Source: a virus
IMG/VR virus record: IMGVR_UViG_3300033148_004210
Coordinates: 1-64,000 of that record
Direction: 5' to 3' (one strand)
Length of the DNA: 64,000 nt
Shown here one piece after another: positions 3,645 to 63,086 of the stretch. The first letter of the stretch is position 1. Each line of letters begins with the position of its first letter. The position numbers and the translations under genes were made by a program. The notes beneath the pieces are model-generated. The model saw only the letters and a list, made by a program, of their open reading frames with translations, searched no databases and was not told the DNA's origin.

Positions 3645-4430
3645 ATGGTAAATATGAAAAAAAGAAAAATAACAAAAAAATATTTAGTAGAGCAATATAT
3701 AAAGAATAAAAAGAATTCTATTCAAATTGCTAAAAGTATAAAATGTTGCGATACTACAATAAGAAATTATCTTAAAAAATATAATATAAAAATAAGAACT
3801 TTATCAGAAGTTCATAGAGGATTAAAACATACATTTAAAACTCGACAAGAAATGAGTATTTCTCATAAGGGATTAAAACATACTGAAGCAACAAAAATCA
3901 AATTAAGTTTATTTCATAAAATATATGACAAAATTTTAACAAAACAATTTTTAATAAAAGAATATATAAAAAATAATAAATCTACTTTAAAAATAGCAAA
4001 GAAAATCGATTGTTCAGTAACAACAATTTGGAAATTTTTAAAGAAATATAATATTCCTGTAAGAAATTTTAGAGAAAGTAGTTGTTGGAAAGGGAAAAAG
4101 AATCCAGAACAGAGTAAAAGAATGAAAGGTAAGAAACATCCCAATTATATAGAAGGATTAGACAGAAAATATCCCTTAGAATTTGATAATCAATTAAAAC
4201 AACAAATTCGTAAACGAGACGATTATACTTGTCAAAACTGTAATATGACAGAAGAAGAACATATTATAGTTCATGGAAGAGTTTTAGATGTCCATCACAT
4301 TGATTATGATAAAGATAATTTAGCCCCAGAAAATTTAATAAGTTTATGTCAAAGTTGTAATATTAGAGCAAATTATAATAGAAAGTATTGGATAGAATAT
4401 TTTCAAACAAAAACAAAGGAAAAGGTATGA
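3645..4430 (+). CDS. Free-standing HNH endonuclease with HTH and NUMOD3-like modules
   Basis: RDDYTCQNC...LDVHHIDYDKDNLAPENLISLCQSCN; KHTEATKIKLS; two IAKxIxCxxTTI helix-turn-helix repeats. Confidence 0.85.
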   Translation: MVNMKKRKITKKYLVEQYIKNKKNSIQIAKSIKCCDTTIRNYLKKYNIKIRTLSEVHRGLKHTFKTRQEMSISHKGLKHTEATKIKLSLFHKIYDKILTKQFLIKEYIKNNKSTLKIAKKIDCSVTTIWKFLKKYNIPVRNFRESSCWKGKKNPEQSKRMKGKKHPNYIEGLDRKYPLEFDNQLKQQIRKRDDYTCQNCNMTEEEHIIVHGRVLDVHHIDYDKDNLAPENLISLCQSCNIRANYNRKYWIEYFQTKTKEKV

Positions 4431-9456: not shown

Positions 9457-12400
9457 GAATACATCGATAAGAAGAAGCCAATTAAAACCTATTATTTGGG
9501 ATGATTTAGATGCTACCAATTCTCCTAGTGATAATTATGTCCCTTCTTATGACGATGCTACAAAAAAATTTACTTGGATTGCAGTTGTAGGAAGCCATGA
9601 TAGACAACACAGTATAGTAGCATCTGCCGACCATTCTGATAAAGCTGATTATATAGACATACCTTATTCTCCTACTATTTTAACTGGTGGAGTTCTTTCT
9701 GAAGGAACAAATCCAGGAACTTTAAAAATAAGTGCTTTAACTGCTTTACTTAGAACAACAGATTCTACTACTGGAGCATTAGCAAAAATAACTTTGACTG
9801 AACAAGATAATCAATCTATAGGTTCTGCTAATACAATATATAAAGTAGTATTAGATTATAATGACGGAAGTCCTCAAATACTTATACAAATAGCTGGTGC
9901 AGACCATAAAAGACAAATAAATATTGGGACTTGTATGAAAGAATTAGATAATACTATTCATATTACTAATGCAGGGTTTAGATTAGCCGAAAGTGCTAAA
10001 AAATCTCATCGTAGAGCTGGTAAACTTAGAAAATGGGAATTGTCTAATGAAATAACAATAACAGATGAAGGCAGTAAACAATTTTCAATATCTTCAGGAG
10101 AACTTTTTAAAGGAATTAATAATTTTATTTGGGCTGGATTTGATTCTTCTGCAACTGGAGAAACTTTTACTTATGTATATTTTGATGGAGATGTTACTGC
10201 TGGAGGAGCTTGGGTATATGTTCCTGACCAAACAGACATAGATGTAGATAATTATAACGATATAGCAATTGGATTAGATTCTTTTACTAAATATAAATGT
10301 GATTGGGTTTTCATTCATCCTGATGATGGACATGTTTATGTAGTTTATGGTCAACAGGACGGAACAATAGGGCAAATATCTGATTCAAGTGTTCCTACGC
10401 TTCCTGATTTAATAGATACTTTTGGAGCATTAGTAGGAAGAATTATAGTAGATGCTGGTGTAGCTACATTTCATAGAATAGAAGTGGTTCAAAATGTAAC
10501 TTTTAGTCCTCAAGTGGTTATAGACCATAATGATAATTCAAATATACAAGGTGGAACTACAGACCAATATTACCATTTAACTTCTGCCGATTATACAGAA
10601 CTTACTCAATGGTTAGATAATGTTACTTTGGGTAGTGATGGCAAATTGACTTTGGTAAGTGGAACAGCTATTAACGAATTTTCTACAGATGGAACTTTAT
10701 CGGACAATTCTGATGATGCAGTGCCAACAGAAAAAGCAGTAAAAACTTATGTTGATAATGCAGTTCCTAATTTGTCTACCAGTGTAGACGATTTTACAAT
10801 TAAATATGAAAACGATAAATTAAAAATCGCAGACCGTATTGAACAAAATATAGCGTTATTAGCTTTTTATAGAGCAATAGACCAATCAGAATCTATTTAT
10901 AATTTAGTGGATGGATTTATAGACGAATTTGAAGACGAAACAGGAGTAGATACTGGAAATTCTACAAATGAAGATTATGATAGTGATAACGATTTATATA
11001 GTCCTTTAACTTTAGCAAATTTAGAATTAGATTATATGGAATATTCTAGTGATGAATTGGTTAGGGCTGATTGGGTATCTTCTGACCCCACATCAGGGAG
11101 TGGCGGTATAGATGCAAATACAAAATTACTTATTCATGGCAATGATGGAGATGCCAGTGGACAAAATCATATACCTACTTATGTAGGAACAGCTAAAATA
11201 GATGCTACTACTTATAAATGGGAAAAAGGTAGTTTATCAGTAGATGGAGATTCCGATTGTCTTACTTTTTCAGACAGTGGTGATTGGGATGTGATAGGTT
11301 CAAATTCAGATAATTGGACTATAGATTTTTGGGTAAAACATACTGACCATGCTGGAAGCGAATATTATATGGCTCATCATGAAGATGGTAGTAATCGATG
11401 GTTTTTCAAACATGGAGATGGCACGGGTTTACTTTTTTATGTTCAAGGCGTTGCGAATTTCAACACAGGTTCTGGTGGAGAAATAACAGATACGGATTGG
11501 CATCATGTTGCAGTTTGTAAAATAGCAGATAAATATGCTTGTTATTTAGATGGAACTCAAGTAAATTATGTTCAAAATAGTGATGTTGATACTTTTGCAG
11601 GAAGTTTATATATAGCACAATCTGGGAGTGGTGATAGTTGGTTTGCTGGTAATATGGACAGTATTAGAATAAATCATAGTAATGTTTTAAATGCAGTAAT
11701 AGATGCTGATGGAAGTTCAGGAACTTGCGACCTTCCTACTTCAGCTTCAACAGCAGATGCAAATACTAAACTTTTACTTAATTTCGAAGACGGAGACCAA
11801 TATGGAGGACATAATGTAGAACCTCAAGGAACAGCTCAAATAGATAGAACTACTAAAAAATGGGGCAATGGTTCTTGGAAATTTGATGGAAACAGTGATT
11901 ATTTAGAATTACCAGATAGTGCAGATTGGGATATAGGTGCTTCAAATTCAGATGATTGGACTATAGATTTATGGGTAAAATGTAGAGTAGCTGATATTTC
12001 TGATGAAGCCCAAGTTATAATGAGCCAAAGAAACGGTGCTGATTATTGGCTTTTTTATAGACATCCTGCCGAAAGTCTTTACTTTTCTACTTCTTGGGGA
12101 GTATCTTCAATAAGTGCGACAGGTCTTCTTGCAGATACTGATTGGCATCATATTGCTTTAATAAAAGTAGCAGATAAATATGCTATCTATTTAGATGGAA
12201 CTCAAATATCTTATACTCAAAATGCTTCAGTTGGCAATATTACTGCTAGTCTATTAATAGGAAAACAAACTGCTGGACAATGGTGGGATGGTCACATGGA
12301 TGAAGTAAGAATACAACATAGTAATATATTTAATGCTTCTCCAAACGATACTCCAAATGATACCATAACAATTCCTACAGGAGAATATGATGTATTAGTA

Positions 12401-52450: not shown

Positions 52451-55400
52451 TTATTCCTCCTTTAAATCTTTTATTTTAGGGTAAGGTTGTTCAGGAAATT
52501 TTTTATACCAATCTCTTTTTTCTTTTTTATTACCTAGACACATTAAATAAACATGTTTTTTCAAAGCGGATTTTATCTCTAATCTATCTCCGTAAATTTG
52601 TTCTAAATTTTTCTTAGATGTGCTTCCATGTTTAGCATTTAAATTTCTTGTATGCACTTCTTTCCCATCAATAAAAATTCTTCTTTCTGGTAATAATCTC
52701 CTTTGAACACCAACATATCTCCAATTAGTTGCTTGATAAATATAACCAATATGTCCATGATTCGGGTCAGCATAAGAAATTAAATATTTAAATTCTGGTC
52801 TATTTTGTCTAATATATTTGAAAGATTGACCTATACAATAACTTTCTATATTTTTAGGTAATCCGTCTTTACTAAATAATCTGATTAATTCTACACAATT
52901 TTCTCTATCTATCTGTAACCATTCAGTAACTCTTCTTCCTATAGGGCATCCATAGACAACAGCAGTAACTAATTCTTTATTATAATAGAATCCTAAAGCC
53001 AGTTTAACAGATGAAGCAATGGTGTGGGAATAATGATTTTTTATTATGTATTTTTTAGCTTCTCGAAAATCTATTTTTTTTATTTCTAAATCTTTTAATT
53101 CAAAATCCAATTCTTTTATTTGTTTTTTCTCTTTTTGAATTCTTTGATATTCTTGATTTACAATGTCTATATTTGGAGCGAGGTTAGAGACTTGCACTCT
53201 ACTCTCCGAACTGGAAGTTCGGCATGTCTTTTTCGACACTTCCCTCGCAAACTGTTTTTCGTTTTTAAGTTTATTAATATATTCTGCCACTTCGTCTTTA
53301 GTTTCTATTCCTATAATTTCCTTAATATTCCACCCCATTGCCTCAAATATAGTTTGGAGTTTCATTAAAATATTACGATTCTTCATAGTTTCCCAATCTA
53401 CTTTGTTTTTATCCACATGTCCGTATGTTTCTTCATCAAATGCCATCACATTTTTTAATTTGCCTTTAGTTGTAATAGAATGTGTAGTTACTTTCCCTTT
53501 GGTAATTAAATGTTCGATTAATTCTTCTTGTTTAATTTTATCCATATTTTTTACTAAAACTTTTTGTCCAAAATGTAATTCCCATTCTTTCTTTAATTTA
53601 GAAGAAGTTAATTTACCTCCATCATACCAAAGAATATTCTTTTTATTCTGCTCATATTCATCTGAATTTACATAAATATAATAAAATAATTCTCCTACTT
53701 TTTTCTTAAAAGAAGGAACTAATTCTTGAGCATATTTTGAAGCCCGAACAAAGATTGGCATGTTTTTATATTCATCTATAGGTTTGCCAATTTTACAGGG
53801 AAAAGCGATATTTTGCAGTGGTTGATTTCTTATTTCTTTAATTTGATTTTTAATCCATACAAAAATAGATTCTTTGGATTCTTTATCGAGTATTTTATCT
53901 ATAAGAGTTCGTTGGAATTTTTTCATAAATACAGTGCTATCTTTTCTTTTTGCTTCTACTCCTTTAACTTCTTCTTCTAATCCTTTGTCTGTTCGAACAT
54001 AACCAAGATACCTACACTTTGTTAATATCAAAATTTTCTCATAATATCCTTTATATTCGAATTCGTTGACAATATTTTCTTTACCATATTTATCCTTAGC
54101 CCATTTTTTTACTAAACTATTCAAAAGATTGGAAATATCATCAGTATTGTTGTTTATCATAACCCCATCGGTGTCCACATATATAACTTCGTAACCCTTT
54201 GATTTTAAAGCAGTTATGACATAATGTAAAAGGTCTCGAACTAAAAAAGTAGTCGCAGATGCAACTTGTTTATTATAAAGTCTAAAAAATCTATTCCCAA
54301 ATACTCCATATGCACTATTCACAACTGTTTTAACTGCATCATATCTTTTTTTTATATCTTTATAATGTCCACTATTTATTGGACATTTTGATAAAGCGGA
54401 CTTAATTTGATTTTTCAAAGTTATCAACTTCTTGACAACTGTTGGAAGTAACGCATTTGAATTTTGTGCGAAATGGCTATTTTCTATAGGAAGTATGTCA
54501 AAACCATCTGCTATCAATCCTTGTTTATCAGATTTTCTTATATTAGCAGGGTCTAAACAAAAATCTATAATCATTGAGGGGTAGCAAGAACTAAGGTCAT
54601 AGATTCCAGTTCCTTCAGTAAACGCTCCAGTTTTAAACGCTTCTCTAAATGCTCCAGCAAAATCTTCTTTTTCTGATAATGTTCCTCTCATTTCGTCAGG
54701 TTTCATTGGTAAAGCTACTTTTTGATTTTTAGCTTCTTGTAATAAAAGCATATCCAATACTCTACTATTCCACAAAAGGTCTTCCCATTCTATTTTCGAC
54801 ATTCTTCTAATTTCATCAAAATAAGAAATAATTTTATGTTTCTTTTCTAACTCAACTAATATCTTAACATCGTCTATATTTCTTTCTTTTGTTTCAGGAG
54901 AAAGTTTAGAAAAATCTAACTTCATATGCTTCTTGCCACGACCTAAATGTTTTTTAGCAATATAATCTAGAGAATAGGCTTGCTCTCTATTTAAAGTTAC
55001 CTTTTTAAACCAAGAAAGATAATCTATAATACTTATACCAGCAGGGTAATAAATTTCTCCGTCTCCATAACGAGTTTGTCCAATAGGACTAATTGATTCG
55101 GCAAAATCTGGATAACGATTACATAAATACGGAAAATCGAATCTTGTAAAATTCCAACCCAATAATATATCAAATTTCTCTTGTTTAAGATACTCTATAA
55201 AAGAATCTATCATTTTGTATTCTGTTTCATAATCTTCGAGATAAAATGTTTTAATTTTCTCACTAAAAGAATTCGAAACACTAATACAACTAACAGGTTT
55301 ATTTGCTTTTTTTACATCAGGCAATTCATCCGATAATATTTCTATATCTATAAAGGAATATTTAATAGGACATTTATCTAATTTATCAATAGCATCAATC

Positions 55401-55651
55401 ATATATCTTTGACAAAATCTTATATCTCCTTCATACGATTTATCACTTCTTTGTTTACGAATGTCGGAAGGCTTGCATATAAATATTTTTCTTAAAGGAG
55501 TTCCATCGAATCCTTTAAATTTACCGTTAATATCGTGTTCGTATAGATAATGAAAGAAATTATTAACTTTTTTAATTTCCTGTTGTCCTTCTTTATTACG
55601 AAGGAAAAGATATATTTCACGATATTTATTATAAATATTAACTAACTTCAT
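52451..55651 (-). CDS. Family B DNA polymerase fused to a C-terminal Mom-family adenine modification domain
   Basis: Exo FIDIE, GWNFTRFDFPY; pol YDLSSCYPS, KTVVNSAYG, YVDTDG. C-terminal (about 52451-53092) IIKNHYSH, VYGCP, ELIRL, PKNIESYCIG, LISYADPNHGHIGYIYQATNW.Y.G = Mom family. Confidence 0.88.
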   Translation of the reverse strand: MKLVNIYNKYREIYLFLRNKEGQQEIKKVNNFFHYLYEHDINGKFKGFDGTPLRKIFICKPSDIRKQRSDKSYEGDIRFCQRYMIDAIDKLDKCPIKYSFIDIEILSDELPDVKKANKPVSCISVSNSFSEKIKTFYLEDYETEYKMIDSFIEYLKQEKFDILLGWNFTRFDFPYLCNRYPDFAESISPIGQTRYGDGEIYYPAGISIIDYLSWFKKVTLNREQAYSLDYIAKKHLGRGKKHMKLDFSKLSPETKERNIDDVKILVELEKKHKIISYFDEIRRMSKIEWEDLLWNSRVLDMLLLQEAKNQKVALPMKPDEMRGTLSEKEDFAGAFREAFKTGAFTEGTGIYDLSSCYPSMIIDFCLDPANIRKSDKQGLIADGFDILPIENSHFAQNSNALLPTVVKKLITLKNQIKSALSKCPINSGHYKDIKKRYDAVKTVVNSAYGVFGNRFFRLYNKQVASATTFLVRDLLHYVITALKSKGYEVIYVDTDGVMINNNTDDISNLLNSLVKKWAKDKYGKENIVNEFEYKGYYEKILILTKCRYLGYVRTDKGLEEEVKGVEAKRKDSTVFMKKFQRTLIDKILDKESKESIFVWIKNQIKEIRNQPLQNIAFPCKIGKPIDEYKNMPIFVRASKYAQELVPSFKKKVGELFYYIYVNSDEYEQNKKNILWYDGGKLTSSKLKKEWELHFGQKVLVKNMDKIKQEELIEHLITKGKVTTHSITTKGKLKNVMAFDEETYGHVDKNKVDWETMKNRNILMKLQTIFEAMGWNIKEIIGIETKDEVAEYINKLKNEKQFAREVSKKTCRTSSSESRVQVSNLAPNIDIVNQEYQRIQKEKKQIKELDFELKDLEIKKIDFREAKKYIIKNHYSHTIASSVKLALGFYYNKELVTAVVYGCPIGRRVTEWLQIDRENCVELIRLFSKDGLPKNIESYCIGQSFKYIRQNRPEFKYLISYADPNHGHIGYIYQATNWRYVGVQRRLLPERRIFIDGKEVHTRNLNAKHGSTSKKNLEQIYGDRLEIKSALKKHVYLMCLGNKKEKRDWYKKFPEQPYPKIKDLKEE
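53174..53248 (-). tRNA. Non-canonical tRNA-Gly(UCC) with encoded CCA, inside the PolB-Mom linker
   Basis: GCGAGGG AA GTGTC GAAAAA GACAT G CCGAA CTTCCAG TTCGG AGAG TAGAG TGCAAGT CTCTA ACCTCGC T CCA. All four stems pair (acceptor 6/7); anticodon TCC at 53215-53213; U73 discriminator. Confidence 0.88.
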
Positions 55652-58352: not shown

Positions 58353-58527
58353 TATCTGCCTCCTGAATAGAATCTCCGTCTCCTAATTCAAATCTGATTT
58401 TTCCTTCATCTCCATAAACTTCATAGCCAACCAACACTAATGCTGATATTAAATCTTTCCAAGCTTCCCTAGAAACTTCTTCCGCACCTGACCACCTATC
58501 AATATTTATCATTGTTTTTTTATTCAT
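58345..58527 (-). CDS. Hypothetical protein
   Basis: ORF track. Confidence 0.5.
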   Translation of the reverse strand: MNKKTMINIDRWSGAEEVSREAWKDLISALVLVGYEVYGDEGKIRFELGDGDSIQEADNE

Positions 58528-59198
58528 TATTTTATTTCTCCTTTAAAGTCTTTTGTTTTTATTTTAGTTATTATTCTATATCCTCTTCTGTCTCTTAATT
58601 CGTATTTTAGTTTGCCTACTACTCCTTCGGCTATAAAGTCTCCAAATGTTGAATACACTCCTTTTTTAATACTGCTAATTGCACAATCAATGGTAGTTTC
58701 TCCTATAATAGGAACAATCCCTATTCCTAATTGGTCGGCTATTTTTTCCAGGTCTTCCCTTTTTAGCCAATAATTACCTATCTTAATATCGAATAAAATA
58801 AATTCTACTCGCTTTTCTCCATTAACATATTTGCCACCAGTTTGTATTTTATATCCGTATCCTTCTCCGTAGAGACAAACATCAGGCAGTTCATCTCCCA
58901 TTCCAAATATTTCTTTCATTTTTTCTAAAGGAAATAATTGCTGTAATTTTTCTAATAAATGTTTAGGCACATCTGCTTTATCTGTCTTCCCTTTGAATTC
59001 TATTTCAGGATAACATAAAGGACAAGTATAATAACAAACTCTAATATTAGTTCCATCTATTTTTTCTGTCCAGACCCATTGTAAGTCTTTTAAGAATTCA
59101 AATTCAGGTTTACTGTATTCTCCGATAATAAATTTACCTTTCTTCGCTCCTTCTAAATATCTTTTATACAATCCGTTGATTTTTGGGTATTGATTCAT
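58527..59198 (-). CDS. ATP-dependent RNA ligase (Rnl2-like adenylation domain)
   Basis: Motif I EKIDGTN, III YGEGYG, IIIa FILFDI, IV AEGVV, V ITKIK; TAATG coupling to recA. Confidence 0.82.
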   Translation of the reverse strand: MNQYPKINGLYKRYLEGAKKGKFIIGEYSKPEFEFLKDLQWVWTEKIDGTNIRVCYYTCPLCYPEIEFKGKTDKADVPKHLLEKLQQLFPLEKMKEIFGMGDELPDVCLYGEGYGYKIQTGGKYVNGEKRVEFILFDIKIGNYWLKREDLEKIADQLGIGIVPIIGETTIDCAISSIKKGVYSTFGDFIAEGVVGKLKYELRDRRGYRIITKIKTKDFKGEIK

Positions 59199-60160
59199 TA
59201 TTTCATTACCTTCCATATTTGTTTTTCTATATGTTCCCAATCTTTATCTGTTAGCAATTTTATGAAGTTATCTTTCCCTACCGCTTTCTTTTTACCGTAA
59301 GTATATGTCTTTCCTGATAATTCAATTATTAAATATTTTAATGCACTAAAGAATACGCATTTTTTATTGTTAATTTTGCCAGTTATAAAAAAGTCAATAA
59401 CGCCTCTACGATATGCTCTGCCTTTTTTATTCTTCTTTGCAAAAATATTAATCTCCATCCCTATTCTTTCCTTCTTATCTCCACTACCTACATCTATAGG
59501 TTTACCAGCTCTGAATTGGATTCGTGAATCGTATAAATGTTTTAAAGCCCTACCCCCAGCAGTATGTTCTGGATTACCATACATAACCCCGACTTTTTCT
59601 CTTAGTTGATTAATAAAAATTACTGTAGTTTTATATTTATTTCTTATCCTATTAATTTTCCTACACATTGGAGAATTAACACTTGCTTGAGATGCCATTG
59701 TTTTTTCTGTTAAATCTCGTTCTATTTCAGCCTCTGGAACTAACGCTACAATACTATCAATAACTATTAAATCTACTTGGGGAATTAATTCTAAAAGACA
59801 TTCCCCAGCTTCTTCTAAAGTATCAGGAGTAATAAGCAATATATTGTCATTATCTACTCCATTTATTTTAGCCCATTGAGGGTCATAAGAAGCTTCAGCA
59901 TTAATGAAAGCACAAGTCTTACCTAATTTTTGATATTTAGCAATAATCTTTAAAGCAAAAGTAGTTTTACCAGAAGATTCTCCACCATAAAATTCTATCA
60001 TATGTCCACCAGAATATTGGGAGATACCGCCATCAAGACAATAATCAAGAGGATAAACCCCTGTCCTAATCTTAGGCTCTACAATAATATCAGAACCTTT
60101 TTGAACTTTGTAATTTTTTTCCAATGAGTTTAAAAGTTTATTTAGTTTTTCATTTTTCAT
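59198..60160 (-). CDS. recA: RecA/UvsX recombinase
   Basis: TG..LD..L.GG, EFYGGESSGKTT, VIDSIVALVP.AE, FINQLREKVGVMYGNPE.T.GGRALK. Confidence 0.92.
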   Translation of the reverse strand: MKNEKLNKLLNSLEKNYKVQKGSDIIVEPKIRTGVYPLDYCLDGGISQYSGGHMIEFYGGESSGKTTFALKIIAKYQKLGKTCAFINAEASYDPQWAKINGVDNDNILLITPDTLEEAGECLLELIPQVDLIVIDSIVALVPEAEIERDLTEKTMASQASVNSPMCRKINRIRNKYKTTVIFINQLREKVGVMYGNPEHTAGGRALKHLYDSRIQFRAGKPIDVGSGDKKERIGMEINIFAKKNKKGRAYRRGVIDFFITGKINNKKCVFFSALKYLIIELSGKTYTYGKKKAVGKDNFIKLLTDKDWEHIEKQIWKVMK

Positions 60161-60320
60161 TTTCTTCCCATCTTTCTTCAGGAATGTCTCCTCGTTTTAA
60201 TCCTTCTTTAACTCTCTCTATATTTCCAGGTCTTCCCATAAGTTTGGCAATTCTTTCTAAAGTTTTGCCTTTTTGAAACTCGGCTATTATTTTTTTATCT
60301 GTTCCGTTTAAATGACCCAT
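60150..60320 (-). CDS. 56-aa HTH-like protein (not in ORF track)
   Basis: FQKGKTLERIAKLMGR; SD AAGGA. Confidence 0.5.
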   Translation of the reverse strand: MGHLNGTDKKIIAEFQKGKTLERIAKLMGRPGNIERVKEGLKRGDIPEERWEENEK

Positions 60321-60630
60321 TATTGTATTCCTTTGCTAAATCAGGATACCAAAAACTTGAAACAGTATTTGACCCTTCTATTTTATCGTCTATTTCATTT
60401 ATTCTCAATTGGGTTCTTACCATTTCTATAGGAATTCGTTTAGTTGTTTCTATTATCGCAAACCCCCCATTATGTTCGAATCCTAAAGAATGTAAAATTT
60501 TTAAAACCTTATTAAAATGCTTGCTATCTTCTTTAGAATATATTCGAGTTTCAAGACAAGTATATAATCGAGGAACTACAGAATTATTATAAGAACATCT
60601 GGTTATAATTTGACCATAATGCCATTTCAT
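60295..60630 (-). CDS. Hypothetical protein, copy 2 of a duplicated gene
   Basis: Near-identical to 33197-33511; SD GGAGG. Confidence 0.65.
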   Translation of the reverse strand: MKWHYGQIITRCSYNNSVVPRLYTCLETRIYSKEDSKHFNKVLKILHSLGFEHNGGFAIIETTKRIPIEMVRTQLRINEIDDKIEGSNTVSSFWYPDLAKEYNNGSFKRNR

Positions 60631-60634
60631 TTTA
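60335..60634. repeat. 300-bp direct repeat, copy 2
   Basis: 9 mismatches versus 33216-33515. Confidence 0.95.
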
Positions 60635-61201
60635 TTCCTCCACCAATCCTGCTAAAGCTAATACACACGCATCTGCAATATCTTGGTCTTTTATTTTTAA
60701 TTTCAAATCCAACGCATTATTGATATATTCTACGATTTCTTTTTTGAGTGCATGTCCCTTTATTTTTTTAGAAGATTTTTTAAAATTTACTTTATTTCTT
60801 GCCGAAGTTGGTAATAGAAATTTCTGCTTACGAGCCAATCCTTTAAATTTATCATAAACAAGCACCGAATGACGAGCCAATGCTTTAAGCGTATTGACAT
60901 TAGACCCAAAATAACAATCTTCAATAATATTAATATCTATTTTATAAGTTTTACTTATTTCCATAGCAAATTCATTTAATTGATTAATGAATAAATCAAG
61001 AGCATCTATTTGAACTACATTTTTAGGAATAGTTATTTTTCGGGTTTTATCTATAATAAGATAACTATCAGTAGTTCTAATAACAGCTACCCCTGTGCTT
61101 CGAACACTAACATCCCAACCTATAGAAATCATATTAGGTTTCAAGTGGATTCCTAAAAAAGCTTCTACTCTGGATTTATTAATCTTTTTTATTGGTTTCA
61201 T
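60632..61201 (-). CDS. RuvC-like Holliday junction resolvase
   Basis: IGWDVSVRSTGVAVI, IIED, L.TSAR, QDIADACVLA. Confidence 0.8.
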   Translation of the reverse strand: MKPIKKINKSRVEAFLGIHLKPNMISIGWDVSVRSTGVAVIRTTDSYLIIDKTRKITIPKNVVQIDALDLFINQLNEFAMEISKTYKIDINIIEDCYFGSNVNTLKALARHSVLVYDKFKGLARKQKFLLPTSARNKVNFKKSSKKIKGHALKKEIVEYINNALDLKLKIKDQDIADACVLALAGLVEE

Positions 61202-63086
61202 TTTGTTTTATTTTTTCCTGTTCAATTTCTTCTACTGTTTTTACTAAATGATTTTCCCAATCATATAAACAAGGTATAGGAAATCTTTTACGTCTTATTT
61301 TTGCATCTCTTACGTTTTCTACTAAAAATTGAGTATCCGTTCCTTCTTCGTTATTATAAACATATTTTGCTAATAAAGCAGGGAATTGTCCTATTTGGTC
61401 TTTTGCAAAAAAGTTATCGTCATTTCTTAATTGCACGAAACAAATTAAAAATCCATTTGTCTTTTTAACTTTTTCTATAAGTTCTGCAAATACATTATCA
61501 GTTCTCGCAAAATCATCTGGTTTAACCCAATCGAATATAGTTACTTTTCCTTCTCTTAAAATTACTTTGGAAGGACTACTTACCCACGCACTAGAAAAAT
61601 CGCCACCCTTCATACCTAATTTTAAAGCCACTTTAGCAAATCTTCCACCAGTTTCATTGTAAATATAATCTGGCTTTATTCCTTGATTAACTAATTTTTT
61701 TACAAAGTTCATCGAAAGGGTCGTCTTCCCGTATTTATTTTGACTTCCTATTATTATTAAATCTTGTTGATTAAAATAAGCCCAATTATGAAAATAAGGC
61801 ACTTTAAATTTTATAGGAACTCCGATTTGAAGTAATTCTTCTGACCAATCTAATTGTTTAATTATTGAATACTTAGCACCTCGTTTACATAAATATTCTT
61901 CTCTAACTAAATATTCCAATACTTTATCTACTCTCTTTTTTTCTTCCCCTCTATTAGTTCCTGCAATAGTCATTGCCATTTCTGTTCTACTCATTTCGCC
62001 AGTTTCTTTTAAATGTTCAAGCACTTTATGAGCTAATTCTTTTTCATCAAATACATTATATTTATCCAATTCTCTAATCATAGCTCTTATTGCTTGTTGT
62101 TGCATAGGTTTTTCTAACATGTGCTTATTTAAAACATTTAATACATATTTTGTTTGGTCAATATTTAATTGTTTTCTTAAAATACCCCCTAATTTTATAA
62201 ATTCGGTATTACAACTTCCATCTAAATTATTATTTTTTAAAAGAAATTTTTTCGGGTCTATTTTAAAATCTTCAGTTATAATATCTTCTCTTAATTTTTC
62301 GCTATTCGTTTTTCTTGGCACTGTTATTTTAGAAAGTAAAAGTTTTTTTAATTCCTTTGGCATTTCTATAATTGGGCGTATTTGTATTATTCGTGAAATA
62401 TCTTTAACTTTAGAAGGATAAATAACAACTTGACCGCCCTCATTTTCAATATCTATTTTAAGAGAATCTATTCTTGTTTTTGGAAAGTTTTTATCATATT
62501 TATAGAAAAGGTGAAACCCATTAGTAGATTCTTGTGTTAAAGTTTTACCCATTAACTTTTTTATTTCTTCAGGAATAGGTTTTTGGTCTATATCTATAAT
62601 AATAATATTACTTTTACTACCAGTTTTAACTCCTAAATTTAATCCATTAACTAACCACCCCTGCCATTCGTCTTTTTCCTTGTGGTTTTTATTTGTCCAA
62701 TCTTTTTCGATAGGTTTTTTTTGGTTATTAGCAATAGGAACTAAATCGAATCCGTTTTCTACATAAAAATCTAAAACTTTTTCTATATTTATTTCGTCTG
62801 TTTTTGTCATTACTTTTACTTTTAATAATTCTTTAAGATAATGATATTGTTCTTCTTCATCGACAGGAAAATTTTTCTCTATTTTTTTAGCTATATCTAA
62901 AACGGTATATTTCTTTTTACAAACAAAACAATTCACAATATTTGTATTGGGAATGATATTTGCTACCATCTTATCTTGATTACAAAAAGGACATTTTACC
63001 ATTATCACCTTGCCAGATTTTTTATAAGGAATTTTTCTTAATTTTAAATATTGAAGTAAATAAGTCTCTATAATTTTTTTATACAT
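61179..63086 (-). CDS. Zn-finger + primase-polymerase (Prim-Pol) + RecA-type helicase-like protein
   Basis: CPFC..CFVC; VPI..QKKP, NLGVKTG, IDID, STNGFHLFY, QVVIYPS; C-terminal GSQNKYGKTT, IFDW, FVQL. Confidence 0.78.
   Translation of the reverse strand: MYKKIIETYLLQYLKLRKIPYKKSGKVIMVKCPFCNQDKMVANIIPNTNIVNCFVCKKKYTVLDIAKKIEKNFPVDEEEQYHYLKELLKVKVMTKTDEINIEKVLDFYVENGFDLVPIANNQKKPIEKDWTNKNHKEKDEWQGWLVNGLNLGVKTGSKSNIIIIDIDQKPIPEEIKKLMGKTLTQESTNGFHLFYKYDKNFPKTRIDSLKIDIENEGGQVVIYPSKVKDISRIIQIRPIIEMPKELKKLLLSKITVPRKTNSEKLREDIITEDFKIDPKKFLLKNNNLDGSCNTEFIKLGGILRKQLNIDQTKYVLNVLNKHMLEKPMQQQAIRAMIRELDKYNVFDEKELAHKVLEHLKETGEMSRTEMAMTIAGTNRGEEKKRVDKVLEYLVREEYLCKRGAKYSIIKQLDWSEELLQIGVPIKFKVPYFHNWAYFNQQDLIIIGSQNKYGKTTLSMNFVKKLVNQGIKPDYIYNETGGRFAKVALKLGMKGGDFSSAWVSSPSKVILREGKVTIFDWVKPDDFARTDNVFAELIEKVKKTNGFLICFVQLRNDDNFFAKDQIGQFPALLAKYVYNNEEGTDTQFLVENVRDAKIRRKRFPIPCLYDWENHLVKTVEEIEQEKIKQNETNKKD

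What the first reader, a model, noticed from the sequence alone, without database searches (positions are those of the whole stretch)
53174..53248. A complete non-canonical tRNA-Gly(UCC) hidden in frame in the linker between DNA polymerase and the Mom domain: candidate dedicated glycyl donor for DNA hypermodification
Seen: the minus strand reads GCGAGGG-AA-GTGTC-GAAAAA-GACAT-G-CCGAA-CT TCC AG-TTCGG-AGAG-TAGAG-TGCAAGT-CTCTA-ACCTCGC-T-CCA. This 75-nt cloverleaf is a GC-rich island in an AT-rich gene. It is also translated as 25 codons (AREVSKKTCRTSSSESRVQVSNLAP) about 27 codons before the Mom domain. It keeps the bacterial GlyRS identity set (G1-C72, C2-G71, G3-C70, C35/C36, U73, CCA). It has lost features of translational tRNAs: A instead of U8, no GG in the D-loop, T-loop UGCAAGU instead of UUCRAxY, and a G7.A66 mismatch. 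Established: loss of the D-loop GG and GUGC in place of GTpsiC mark the staphylococcal non-proteinogenic tRNA-Gly species that feed glycine to Fem transferases. Mu Mom is a GNAT-fold enzyme making N6-carbamoylmethyladenine, formally a glycine-derived adduct. I recall recent work reporting Gly-tRNA-Gly as the Mom donor but cannot verify it here. Inference: the phage encodes its own ribosome-avoiding tRNA-Gly as a private cosubstrate for Mom, built into the same gene, so one stretch of DNA encodes both the linker peptide and the enzyme's substrate.
Basis: partly seen in the sequence, partly recalled or inferred. Interest (0 to 1): 0.96.

Follow-up and report, generated by a model that had tools for sequence, protein, structure and literature searches.

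The report
Glycine-tRNA look-alike inside Mom gene
Twenty-five codons of this phage's DNA-polymerase/Mom fusion gene also spell a conserved but deformed glycine tRNA, and because Mom enzymes take glycine from charged glycine tRNA to disguise DNA, this RNA is most likely the enzyme's own glycine carrier, though nobody has tested that at the bench.

Summary
Minus strand 53248..53174 is a 75-nt, 52% GC cloverleaf in a ~28% GC gene. It forms codons 802-826 of a 1066-aa PolB-Mom fusion.

It is a real, selected RNA. Ten distinct in-ORF copies in related metagenomic phages, plus two free-standing relatives, pair at 99% of stem cells. 14 of 21 stem pairs show changes on both sides, against at most 46% pairing in slid controls.

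- **Invariant positions:** G1-C72, C2-G71, U73-CCA, U33, C35, C36 and A37. This is the bacterial GlyRS identity set.
- **Free or odd positions:** position 34 is U or A, and 32:38 always pairs. A8, no D-loop GG, the GUGC T-loop and G7.A66 are kept family-wide.
- **Standard detectors miss it:** ARAGORN and Rfam tRNA models do not call it.
- **Not protein-driven:** variation shows no third-codon-position excess, and the encoded peptide is predicted disordered.

In relatives mom is a separate gene and the element starts 54-102 nt after its ATG, so the PolB "linker" position is only one arrangement.

Mu Mom does use Gly-tRNAGly (Silva 2026). A dedicated glycyl donor is the best explanation (~0.55), untested.

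The arrangement is not new. A tRNA-Gly-like "pseudo-tRNA" inside Dehalococcoides mom homologues was published in 2011. This scan's earlier notes report it on other DNA (65 notes, at least 51 genomes). The functional link appears unpublished.

The parts
53174..53248 (-). 75-nt non-canonical tRNA-Gly(UCC)-like element, identical to codons 802-826 of the PolB-Mom ORF
   Evidence: Sequence. The cloverleaf is the MFE structure. R1/R2 covariance-model hit at 96.8-100.7 bits, the only one in the 101.6-kb genome. Covariation in 12 distinct homologues.
53242..53248 (-). Acceptor stem, 5' strand (G1 C2 G3 A4 G5 G6 G7). G7 faces A66, a mismatch invariant in the in-ORF family.
   Evidence: Pairs 1-72 and 2-71 are invariant (GC 12/12, CG 12/12). 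Pairs 3-70, 4-69 and 5-68 covary.
53224..53241 (-). A8 A9 plus the D arm: a 5-bp stem GUGUC/GACAU and a 6-nt loop GAAAAA without G18G19
   Evidence: Alignment A2/A4. The loop is GAAA(A/C/G)A in all in-ORF copies. 12-23 covaries G-C/A-U.
53206..53222 (-). Anticodon arm CCGAA-CUUCCAG-UUCGG. The anticodon UCC is at 53213-53215, which is also Ser codon 813.
   Evidence: All 5 stem pairs covary. 32:38 pairs in 12/12 (CG 6, AU 3, UA 2, UG 1). C35, C36 and A37 are invariant, and U33 in all but L011 (G). Position 34 is U or A.
53185..53201 (-). T arm UAGAG-UGCAAGU-CUCUA (GUGC in place of GUUC)
   Evidence: 4 of 5 stem pairs covary and G53-C61 is invariant. The loop is (U/C)GCAAGU in all in-ORF copies.
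53174..53184 (-). A66, the acceptor 3' strand CCUCGC, discriminator U73 (53177) and encoded CCA (53174-53176)
   Evidence: GCUCCA is invariant in all in-ORF copies and in L011. L057 ends CUCUA.
52451..55651 (-). 1066-aa PolB-Mom fusion ORF that contains the element
   Evidence: ORF list and translation. Pfam and PHROG domains.
53636..55639 (-). Family B DNA polymerase part (residues ~5-672)
   Evidence: phrog_262 5-666, E 1.1e-79. PF00136 300-672 and PF03104 102-231.
53249..53287 (-). Degenerate remnant (EYINKLKNEKQF) of the leader peptide MDLSKLSNEELLKLK.KF that heads the separate mom genes of relatives
   Evidence: tblastn and protein alignments.
53093..53173 (-). 27-codon spacer between the element and the Mom domain. 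It has no ATG.
   Evidence: Translation. The equivalent stretch in L001 Mom is low-confidence or helical in AF2.
52475..53092 (-). Mom (GNAT-fold, PF25680) domain, residues 854-1059, with the equivalents of Mu Mom R111 and S124 present
   Evidence: Pfam E 8.6e-45. The genome search gives 52475-53092. The alignment to PDB 8bv8 (E 3.5e-17) matches ELIRLF with ELNRMW and NIES with NSE[A/S].

Best explanation
The 75 nt are a dedicated, non-ribosomal tRNA-Gly-like RNA that travels with Mom-type GNAT genes.

**Proposed mechanism (every step after transcription is inferred).**
1. The element is transcribed as part of the polB-mom (or mom) mRNA.
2. On untranslated copies it folds into the cloverleaf.
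3. RNase P releases it at G1, and 3' trimming stops at the encoded CCA.
4. The host's bacterial-type GlyRS charges it through G1-C72, C2-G71, U73, C35 and C36.
5. Its remodelled core keeps it out of the EF-Tu/ribosome pool. That core comprises A8, no G18G19, G55, G7.A66 and a 6-bp anticodon stem with a 5-nt loop.
6. The Mom domain then uses it as the glycyl donor for N6-adenine modification of phage dsDNA.

**What is shown here.** It is a real, selected RNA structure. Its invariant positions are the GlyRS identity set. It is tied to Mom-type genes.
For: **1. Structure under selection.**
- 12 distinct sequences pair at 99.2% of stem cells.
- 14 of 21 pairs have changes on both sides (15 of 22 if 32:38 is included), and 0 of 500 shuffles reach the observed values.
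- Slid controls pair at 46% or less.
- On the first 5 distinct copies, aligned without any model, 11 of 22 pairs change on both sides.

**2. RNA-level, not protein-level, constraint.**
- Variable columns number 12, 11 and 10 of 25 at codon positions 1, 2 and 3.
- 25 of 42 paired columns vary, all compensated. Only 8 of 33 unpaired columns vary.
- Element identity is 67-100% where the adjoining enzyme domains are 18-78% identical.
- AF2 gives pLDDT below 50 and coil for residues 14-44 of L001 Mom, next to a confident Mom fold.

**3. The invariants match GlyRS identity.**
- Invariant: G1-C72, C2-G71, U73, C35 and C36 (the identity set as listed in PMC7826273), plus A37 and CCA. U33 holds in all but L011.
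- Position 34 is U or A. A34 arose at least twice (L085; L128 versus L119).

**4. Mom's co-substrate.** It is Gly-tRNAGly, and the terminal riboadenosine is essential (PMC13219725). The window's Mom keeps the R111 and S124 equivalents.

**5. The association is with the GNAT gene, not with PolB.**
- L002 has two Mom paralogues that are 34% identical, each headed by an identical copy.
- L011 has a free-standing copy 28 nt before four tandem Moms.
- L057 has one upstream of three Moms.
- The same leader-plus-element cassette heads DruA-like GNAT genes.
- The descriptor scan hits only Mom 5' ends and nothing in shuffles.

**6. It is not part of a translational tRNA set.**
- It is the only tRNA-like gene in this complete 101.6-kb genome.
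- Four of five relatives' records have no canonical tRNA.
- Ordinary tRNAs in 121 Bacilli genomes score 26 bits or less with R1, against 89-101 bits for family members.

**7. Precedent for the logic.** Staphylococcal NP-tRNAGly carry UGC in the T loop, lack G19, have a 5-base anticodon loop, bind EF-Tu poorly and feed FmhB (PMC7826273).
Against: - No RNA data. No processed 75-nt species, charging or use by Mom has been shown, and no sequencing run could be listed.
- In the in-ORF family, excision would cut the Mom-coding part off from its start codon. Each transcript would therefore yield either enzyme or tRNA.
- L002 keeps one identical copy in each of two mom genes. That hints at a need in cis, or may only reflect recombination within the conserved stretch.
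- Mu Mom works with ordinary host tRNAGly, so a private donor is not required by the chemistry.
- About 200 other Mom loci searched here show no such element within 2.5-4 kb.
- The missing G18G19/psi55 elbow could impair RNase P and GlyRS as well as EF-Tu.
- G3-C70 is not conserved.
- The host is unknown. One relative's protein is labelled from a Lokiarchaeia MAG bin. Archaeal GlyRS would expect A73, by my own knowledge, although RecA and RuvC point to a bacterial host.
Confidence: 0.55

Rival explanations
1. Cis-acting tRNA mimic. The cloverleaf stays in the mRNA and serves as a binding or cleavage site. Mom itself, GlyRS or RNase P would act on it to throttle or time the expression of a toxic DNA modifier, or to separate polB and mom messages. 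Known analogues are the thrS operator and MALAT1 mascRNA-type processing.
For: - In the main family the element always lies in cis, inside the mom reading frame, 54-102 nt after the ATG.
- L002 keeps one copy per mom gene. The duplicated block is SD + ATG + leader + element, and it ends about 5 nt after CCA.
- By my own knowledge, Mu mom is under tight translational control (Com).
- RNase P cleavage at G1 would necessarily inactivate the mom message.
Against: - In the window the element lies 2.4 kb from the start codon. In L057 it lies 1.4 kb and one ORF away from the Moms. In L011 one copy serves four Moms.
- At 54 nt or more from the AUG it is outside the initiation footprint.
- A processing or roadblock signal would not need invariant C35, C36, A37 and U73-CCA with a free position 34.
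- G125 has a second Mom with no element.
Confidence: 0.22
2. An ordinary decoding tRNA-Gly. The phage supplies it for translation, and it merely became overlapped by the mom reading frame.
For: - It is a complete cloverleaf with U33, an NCC anticodon, A37 and CCA.
- Phages commonly carry tRNAs.
- L057's relative has a canonical GGUUCGAUUCC T arm and GG in the D loop.
Against: - A8, the missing G18G19, G55, G7.A66 and an always-paired 32:38 are conserved.
- ARAGORN and RF00005 do not call it.
- A34 variants exist.
- It is the sole tRNA-like gene in a 101-kb genome and is always tied to Mom-type genes.
Confidence: 0.07
3. A tRNA acting as an in-frame 'intron'. The 75 nt (25 codons) are excised by tRNA-processing enzymes and the mRNA halves are rejoined by the phage RNA ligase. 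One transcript would then give both the tRNA and a Mom lacking the 25-residue peptide.
For: - All ten in-ORF copies are exactly 75 nt and begin at codon position 1.
- A PF09414 RNA_ligase gene lies at 58527-59198 on the same strand. One is also found in 3 of 5 relatives' records.
- The encoded peptide is predicted disordered.
Against: - Staying in frame is required anyway for an ORF to run through the element, and common descent explains the shared phase.
- PF09414 sits in a replication/recombination module (RecA, RuvC, prim-pol) and could serve DNA or RNA repair.
- It was not found in G122 or G123, though both records are incomplete.
- I know of no precedent and have no RNA data.
Confidence: 0.04
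4. Chance cloverleaf, or conservation caused only by the encoded peptide.
For: - A single-sequence z-score of -3.3 is not rare across 64 kb.
- The peptide FA.EVSK..S..VQ.N.AP is conserved.
Against: - Compensatory changes occur in all four stems and there is no third-position excess.
- The amino-acid changes are non-conservative (R/G, C/Y, TCR/ILL/TRP) and the peptide is predicted disordered.
- Free-standing non-coding copies exist in L011 and L057.
Confidence: 0.01

Closest known systems
tRNA-Gly-like 'pseudo-tRNA' embedded in the mom homologue of Dehalococcoides ssrA genomic islands (McMurdie et al. 2011, BMC Genomics 12:287, PMC3146451)
   Same: - A tRNA-Gly-like cloverleaf of about 76 nt lies inside the first 150 bp of a ~270-aa Mom homologue.
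- Its apparent anticodon is DCC, and its 3' end is highly conserved.
- The relatives of this window have the same layout: a 75-nt element starting 54-102 nt after the ATG of Moms of about 275-300 aa, with anticodon UCC or ACC.
   Different: - That case lies in bacterial integrative islands, not phages.
- Its function was left open, because Mom's tRNA dependence was then unknown.
- Here the gene is fused to PolB, so the element sits 2.4 kb into the ORF.
- I could not obtain the Dehalococcoides sequences, so sequence homology between the two is untested.
Phage Mu Mom with host Gly-tRNAGly (Silva et al. 2026, Nat Commun, PMC13219725; PDB 8bv8)
   Same: - The same enzyme family: PF25680, E 8.6e-45, and phmmer to 8bv8 at E 3.5e-17, with the R111 and S124 equivalents kept.
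- The expected co-substrate is a glycyl-tRNAGly with a terminal riboadenosine.
   Different: - Mu scavenges ordinary host isoacceptors and encodes no tRNA.
- The paper does not mention embedded or phage-encoded tRNAs.
- Here a private, non-canonical tRNA-Gly-like RNA is written into the enzyme's own gene.
Staphylococcal non-proteogenic tRNAGly (NP1-3) feeding FmhB/FemAB (Rietmeyer et al. 2020/21, PMC7826273)
   Same: - UCC anticodon and the GlyRS identity set.
- UGC instead of UUC in the T loop, so no psi55, and no G19.
- A five-base anticodon loop on a six-pair stem.
- The logic of a glycyl donor kept away from EF-Tu for a GNAT-fold transferase.
   Different: - NP tRNAs are free-standing chromosomal genes of one bacterial genus and keep U8 (s4U8).
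- The phage element has A8 and G7.A66, lies inside an ORF and serves a DNA modifier.
- There is no evidence of common descent: R1 scores 26 bits or less on 121 Bacilli genomes, whose names are not known.
tRNA-like structures in mRNAs (thrS operator; plant-virus 3' TLS; MALAT1 mascRNA)
   Same: A tRNA-shaped fold inside a longer transcript, recognised by tRNA enzymes.
   Different: Those lie in untranslated regions. None is an in-frame part of the coding sequence of the enzyme that uses the matching aminoacyl-tRNA. This comparison rests on my own knowledge and was not tested here.

Membership tests
Canonical (translational) bacterial tRNA, Rfam RF00005 / ARAGORN | Cloverleaf with acceptor, D, anticodon and T stems | tested here: met
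   The MFE structure is a cloverleaf. All four stems are supported by covariation.
Canonical (translational) bacterial tRNA, Rfam RF00005 / ARAGORN | Conserved core: U8, G18G19 in the D loop, U54-psi55-C56 in the T loop, 7-66 paired | tested here: not met
   A8, D loop GAAAAA, T loop UGCAAGU (G55) and G7.A66 are invariant across the in-ORF family.
Canonical (translational) bacterial tRNA, Rfam RF00005 / ARAGORN | Scores above the detectors' thresholds | tested here: not met
   ARAGORN default finds 0. Rfam gives no hit at gathering score or at E<=10. ARAGORN calls it tRNA-Gly only at 80-90% of its thresholds.
Substrate of bacterial GlyRS (tRNAGly identity set) | G1-C72, C2-G71, U73, C35, C36 present | tested here: met
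   All are present in the window and invariant in 12 of 12 distinct sequences. The identity set is as listed in PMC7826273.
Substrate of bacterial GlyRS (tRNAGly identity set) | G3-C70 | tested here: inconclusive
   Present in the window. In the family it is GC 8, AU 3 and one A.C mismatch.
Substrate of bacterial GlyRS (tRNAGly identity set) | Actually glycylated, with a free CCA-3' end | not testable with these tools
   Needs processing and charging assays. No RNA run could be listed.
Staphylococcal-type non-proteogenic tRNAGly | UGC/UGU instead of UUC in the T loop; no G19; 5-base anticodon loop | tested here: met
   GUGC in the T arm, no GG in the D loop, and 32:38 paired in 12 of 12. Compared with the description in PMC7826273.
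Staphylococcal-type non-proteogenic tRNAGly | U8 (s4U8); membership of the staphylococcal lineage | tested here: not met
   A8 is invariant. The host is unknown. R1 finds nothing above 26 bits in 121 Bacilli genomes, whose genera are not told.
Staphylococcal-type non-proteogenic tRNAGly | [quoted passage not shown] | not testable with these tools
   T-stem pairs 49-65, 50-64 and 51-63 vary in the family. No affinity can be derived here.
mom-embedded tRNA-Gly-like RNA (McMurdie 2011) | tRNA-Gly-like fold of about 76 nt inside the first ~150 bp of a Mom homologue; anticodon DCC | tested here: met
   In separate-gene relatives the element starts 54-102 nt after the ATG, with UCC or ACC. In the window the PolB fusion moves it to codon 802. 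Paper text.
mom-embedded tRNA-Gly-like RNA (McMurdie 2011) | Sequence homology to the Dehalococcoides copies | not tested
Mom (PF25680) tRNA-dependent DNA N6-adenine modifier | Mom domain with the equivalents of catalytic R111 and S124 | tested here: met
   PF25680 E 8.6e-45. The alignment to 8bv8 shows ELIRLF and NIES at the two positions. The numbering allows for the 10-residue truncation of the crystallised construct.
Mom (PF25680) tRNA-dependent DNA N6-adenine modifier | Transfers glycine from Gly-tRNAGly to dsDNA | not testable with these tools
   Shown only for Mu Mom and two mined homologues (PMC13219725).

The most novel reading that the evidence does not exclude
One stretch of DNA encodes both an enzyme and its co-substrate. 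The mom message would be either translated through the cloverleaf or cut to release a private, EF-Tu-evading glycyl-tRNA that the same Mom uses to hypermodify DNA. The same leader-plus-tRNA cassette also heads DruA-like GNAT genes. Proteins of the DruA family (Pfam PF14236, named after a Druantia defence protein) may therefore also be aminoacyl-tRNA-dependent nucleic-acid modifiers.
Probability: 0.4. Interest if true: 0.92.

Novelty: new variant of a known kind. Interest (0 to 1): 0.8.

Why it matters
**If the element is the glycyl donor**, Mom-type DNA hypermodification systems can be self-sufficient. The enzyme and its activated substrate carrier would travel together on mobile DNA, even within the same nucleotides. 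That would be a second, independent case of a tRNA set aside for non-ribosomal chemistry, after the staphylococcal NP-tRNAGly. It would also be the first serving DNA modification.

**It gives a ready test system.**
- A 75-nt transcript, GlyRS and the published Mom assay can ask what Mom recognises on tRNA, which the 2026 paper left open.
- The same system can ask how a tRNA is kept away from EF-Tu.

**It explains an orphan observation.** The 2011 'pseudo-tRNA' in Dehalococcoides mom genes would gain a function.

**It flags a blind spot.** Functional tRNA-like genes inside ORFs are invisible to tRNAscan-type tools at default thresholds.

**It offers a biochemical lead.** The cassette's link to DruA-like GNATs suggests a function for a defence-system protein family that has none assigned.

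Tried and rejected
**Standard detectors**
- ARAGORN (default) and Rfam (gathering score and E<=10) do not call the element or its relatives. L057 gives only a weak tRNA-Sec row, 19 bits.
- ARAGORN at 80% thresholds on 1.13 Mb of Mom loci gave 475 calls. That is too noisy to use, and only the known copies were real.

**Expression data**
- The look-up of sequencing runs listed no run, DNA or RNA, so no reads could be laid on the sequence.

The DNA behind P0006-P0016 could not be read, so those 13 or more proteins support the family only through the encoded peptide.

**Pattern scans**
- The genome-contig scan for the 3' half gave 12 hits, none real by R1 (best 13.8 bits). No host or prophage was found this way.
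- The metagenome-contig scan added only four distinct new copies, in L116, L119/L136 and L128.
- The 5'-half scan of viral contigs added nothing real.

**Wider searches**
- R2 on about 200 further Mom loci found only L011 and L057, plus a marginal 19-bit row in L155 that I did not follow.
- The INPHARED phage collection holds no cultured phage with the element and no close relative of the gene.
- R1 on 121 Bacilli genomes gave a best hit of 26 bits. A direct comparison with staphylococcal NP-tRNAGly sequences was not possible.

**Other checks**
- hhalign of the L085 protein against the Mom alignment matched only the element-encoded peptide. Its enzyme domain is DruA-like, not Mom.
- The Dehalococcoides element sequence is not in the held supplements.
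- I considered attP or a tRNA-gene fragment for integration. I rejected it because this is a complete tRNA-like unit inside a replication-module gene of a DTR phage, and it is conserved by covariation.


Full report
**1. The observation**

The minus strand of 53248..53174 reads GCGAGGG-AA-GUGUC-GAAAAA-GACAU-G-CCGAA-CUUCCAG-UUCGG-AGAG-UAGAG-UGCAAGU-CUCUA-A-CCUCGC-U-CCA.

- **Fold.** RNAfold returns this cloverleaf as both MFE and centroid, at -28.2 kcal/mol with z -3.3.
- **Composition.** The stretch is a GC island, 0.52 against about 0.28.
- **Gene context.** It forms codons 802-826 of ORF 52451..55651(-), 1066 aa. Pfam and PHROGs read that ORF as family-B DNA polymerase plus Mom, with PF25680 at residues 854-1059, E 8.6e-45.
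- **Standard detectors.** ARAGORN and Rfam do not call it in the window, in a permissive 451-nt search, or in the complete 101.6-kb DTR virus genome. ARAGORN calls it tRNA-Gly(tcc), with exactly these ends, only at 80% of its thresholds.

**2. Is it real?**

Related IMG/VR and JGI metagenome contigs carry the same 75 nt. They were found through the Mom protein and through DNA patterns.

- **Copies.** There are ten distinct in-ORF copies: the window, L001, L003, L002 (two identical copies), L004, L082, L085, L116, L119/L136 and L128.
- **Alignment.** None has an indel, so the alignment does not depend on any model.
- **Covariation, first set.** On the first five distinct copies, 11 of 22 proposed pairs change on both sides. 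95.5% of cells pair, and the only exception is the invariant G7.A66.
- **Covariation, full set.** With 12 distinct sequences, 99.2% of cells pair. 14 of 21 pairs change on both sides, no shuffle of 500 reaches the observed values, and slid registers pair at 46% or less.
- **Position 32:38.** It also pairs in 12 of 12 (CG 6, AU 3, UA 2, UG 1). The anticodon stem is therefore six pairs long with a five-base loop U-N-C-C-A.

The constraint acts on the RNA rather than the protein.

- Variable columns number 12, 11 and 10 of 25 at codon positions 1, 2 and 3.
- 25 of 42 paired columns vary, compensated, against 8 of 33 unpaired columns.
- Element identity is 67-100% where the adjoining enzyme domains are 18-78% identical.
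- AlphaFold gives pLDDT below 50 and coil for the encoded peptide, next to a confident Mom fold.

**3. What is conserved**

- **Invariant in all 12:** G1-C72, C2-G71, C35, C36, A37, U73, G53-C61 and A8. U33 holds in all but L011, which has G.
- **Invariant in the in-ORF family:** the D loop GAAA(A/C/G)A, the T loop (U/C)GCAAGU, G7.A66 and CCA.
- **Free or variable:** position 34 is U in most copies and A in L085 and L128. L128 otherwise nearly equals the UCC-bearing L119. G3-C70 varies.

The invariant set is the bacterial GlyRS identity set as listed in PMC7826273. The features that decoding, EF-Tu and the tRNA elbow depend on are changed or free.

**4. Gene context**

- **The PolB-Mom fusion is only one arrangement.** In L001, L003, L004 and L082, mom is a separate gene that starts at the polB stop. 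In L002 the two mom genes follow polB, and in L116 and L119 mom is also a separate gene. These genes encode about 275-300 aa. Most encode MDLSKLSNEELLKLK.KF first and then run straight into the element, in frame and at codon position 1.
- **More members in the protein collection.** Thirteen proteins there share this N-terminus, always with Ser at the anticodon codon.
- **The window's leader is degenerate.** It reads YINKLKNEKQF.
- **The link is to the GNAT gene, not to PolB.**
  - L002 has two Mom paralogues, 34% identical. Each is headed by an identical block of SD, ATG, leader and element, and identity stops about 5 nt after CCA.
  - L011 has a free-standing, more deformed copy (GUGCAAC T loop, loop UGUCCAG, short D arm, UCCA end). 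It lies 28 nt before four tandem Moms.
  - L057 has a free-standing relative with a canonical T arm, the same G7.A66 and A8, a 9-nt anticodon loop and no encoded CCA. It lies upstream of a 454-aa ORF and three Moms.
  - In L085, and in protein P0016, the same cassette heads a DruA-like (PF14236) domain. That domain folds as a GNAT, with Z 10-11 to many GNATs and Mu Mom at Z 10.4 over the longest alignment, 172 residues.
- **A minority feature in my sample.** CM, relaxed ARAGORN and a descriptor scan of about 209 Mom loci found it only in the contigs above.
- **Not part of a tRNA set.** It is the only tRNA-like gene in this phage. Four of five relatives' records hold no canonical tRNA.

**5. 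Mechanism**

Silva et al. (Nat Commun 2026, PMC13219725) showed three things about Mu Mom:
- It transfers glycine from Gly-tRNAGly to N6 of adenine in dsDNA.
- It needs the terminal riboadenosine.
- It accepts all three E. coli isoacceptors but rejects Gly-tRNAAla.

The window's Mom domain aligns to PDB 8bv8 at E 3.5e-17 and keeps the equivalents of R111 and S124.

The best reading is a dedicated glycyl donor. It would be released from the message, charged by host GlyRS, kept away from EF-Tu and the ribosome by its remodelled core, and used by Mom. The logic parallels the staphylococcal NP-tRNAGly/FmhB system. Those tRNAs also have UGC in the T loop, lack G19 and have a five-base anticodon loop (PMC7826273).

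Only the structure, its invariants and its gene association are shown here. Release, charging, EF-Tu avoidance and use by Mom are all inferred. I put this reading at about 0.55.

Rivals, in order of likelihood:
- **Cis-acting mimic or processing signal (0.22).** The strict in-ORF position and one copy per mom in L002 favour it. The invariant anticodon and CCA, the 2.4-kb distance from the start codon here, and the free-standing copies that serve Mom arrays count against it.
- **Ordinary decoding tRNA (0.07).**
- **In-frame excision plus religation by the phage PF09414 ligase at 58527-59198 (0.04).**
- **Chance or peptide-only conservation.** This is refuted.

**6. Comparison with the known, and novelty**

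I first found no description of such an element in the literature. Silva et al. do not mention one.

Earlier notes of this scan pointed me to McMurdie et al. 2011 (PMC3146451), which I read. It reports a 76-bp conserved tRNA-Gly-like 'pseudo-tRNA' with apparent anticodon DCC. It is embedded in the first 150 bp of the Mom homologue of 16 Dehalococcoides ssrA islands and of a deep-sea fosmid. No function was proposed.

- **The kind of object is therefore published.** The scan has also noted it on other DNA: 65 notes in at least 51 genomes. I did not check those.
- **What is new here:**
  - the phage family with its GUGC T loop;
  - the PolB fusion;
  - the quantified covariation and codon-position evidence;
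  - the A34 variants and the 32:38 pairing;
  - the cassette's link to DruA-like GNATs.
- **The functional connection** to Mom's tRNA dependence appears unpublished in the library I searched.
- **Untested:** homology with the Dehalococcoides copies.

**7. Limits**

- No RNA-level data could be obtained.
- The host is unknown. RecA and RuvC suggest a bacterium, while one relative's protein carries a Lokiarchaeia MAG label.

Noticed in passing
L085:2-1249 (+); protein P0016; alignment A6: The same leader-plus-element cassette heads DruA-like (PF14236) domains instead of Mom. In L085, PolB C-terminus, element (ACC) and a DruA-like domain lie in one frame, and that complete phage (G126) has no PF25680 Mom. 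P0016 shares its first 49 residues with L119's Mom and then switches to DruA-like. The DruA-like domain models confidently (pLDDT 91) as a GNAT fold, with Z 10-11 to many GNATs and Mu Mom 8bv8 at Z 10.4 over 172 residues. DruA-family proteins may therefore be aminoacyl-tRNA-dependent.
   Followed up: partly
L001:4225-4278, L002:2942-3004 and 3995-4057; window 53249-53287: Separate mom genes of this clade begin with a conserved peptide, MDLSKLSNEELLKLK.KF (13 proteins). It is degenerate (YINKLKNEKQF) in the window's PolB-Mom fusion. It may be a PolB-docking peptide made redundant by the fusion.
   Followed up: no
L002:2891-3083 versus L002:3944-4136: Two Mom paralogues are only 34% identical as proteins. 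They share a 100% identical block of SD, ATG, leader and element, and identity ends about 5 nt after CCA. The same sharp boundary at the element's 3' end separates L119 Mom from P0016, and P0002 from P0008. The conserved 75 nt seem to act as a recombination joint or a portable 5' cassette.
   Followed up: partly
L119:~335-355, L136 and L128 (equivalent positions, 5 nt upstream of the element): In this subgroup a 6-bp hairpin with compensatory changes lies just 5' of the element, inside the ORF (ACAGGG...CCCTGT versus GCAGAG...CTCTGC). Its function is unknown.
   Followed up: no
L057:2494-2598: A free-standing relative of the element has a canonical GGUUCGAUUCC T arm, GG in the D loop, the same G7.A66 and A8, a 9-nt anticodon loop (ARAGORN at -ps90 calls a 4-base anticodon 'tcca') and a 3' CUCUA end. 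It directly follows a terminator-like hairpin. It precedes a 454-aa ORF with no Pfam match and three tandem Mom genes. Moms 68-71% identical in other contigs (L219-L221) show no such element.
   Followed up: partly
L011:90-3747: An N6/N4 DNA methylase gene is followed by a deformed tRNA-Gly-like element (887-955, 62% GC, short D arm) and then four tandem Mom paralogues. This looks like an array of modifiers served by one tRNA-like RNA.
   Followed up: partly
window 58527-63086 (-): The replication and recombination module upstream of polB-mom holds a PF09414 RNA_ligase-family protein (58527-59198), RecA (59198-60160), RuvC (60632-61201) and a primase-polymerase (61179-63086). RNA_ligase homologues are also found in 3 of 5 relatives' records.
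   Followed up: partly
G125 (the record holding L082): 9660-10259 (-): The L082 phage has a second Mom gene (217-aa ORF) about 6 kb from the element-bearing one. It lacks the N-terminal extension and therefore the element.
   Followed up: no
L282:1501-1579 (G124, the L004 phage): This is the only canonical tRNA found in five relatives' records. ARAGORN calls it tRNA-Tyr(GUA), but it is 79 nt with an unusually long anticodon arm and a U discriminator.
   Followed up: no
protein P0005 (the L003 Mom): NCBI holds this protein as a hypothetical protein of a 'Candidatus Lokiarchaeia archaeon' MAG, on a 93.6-kb contig. It is probably a viral contig binned by composition, but the host of this phage group remains unknown.
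   Followed up: no
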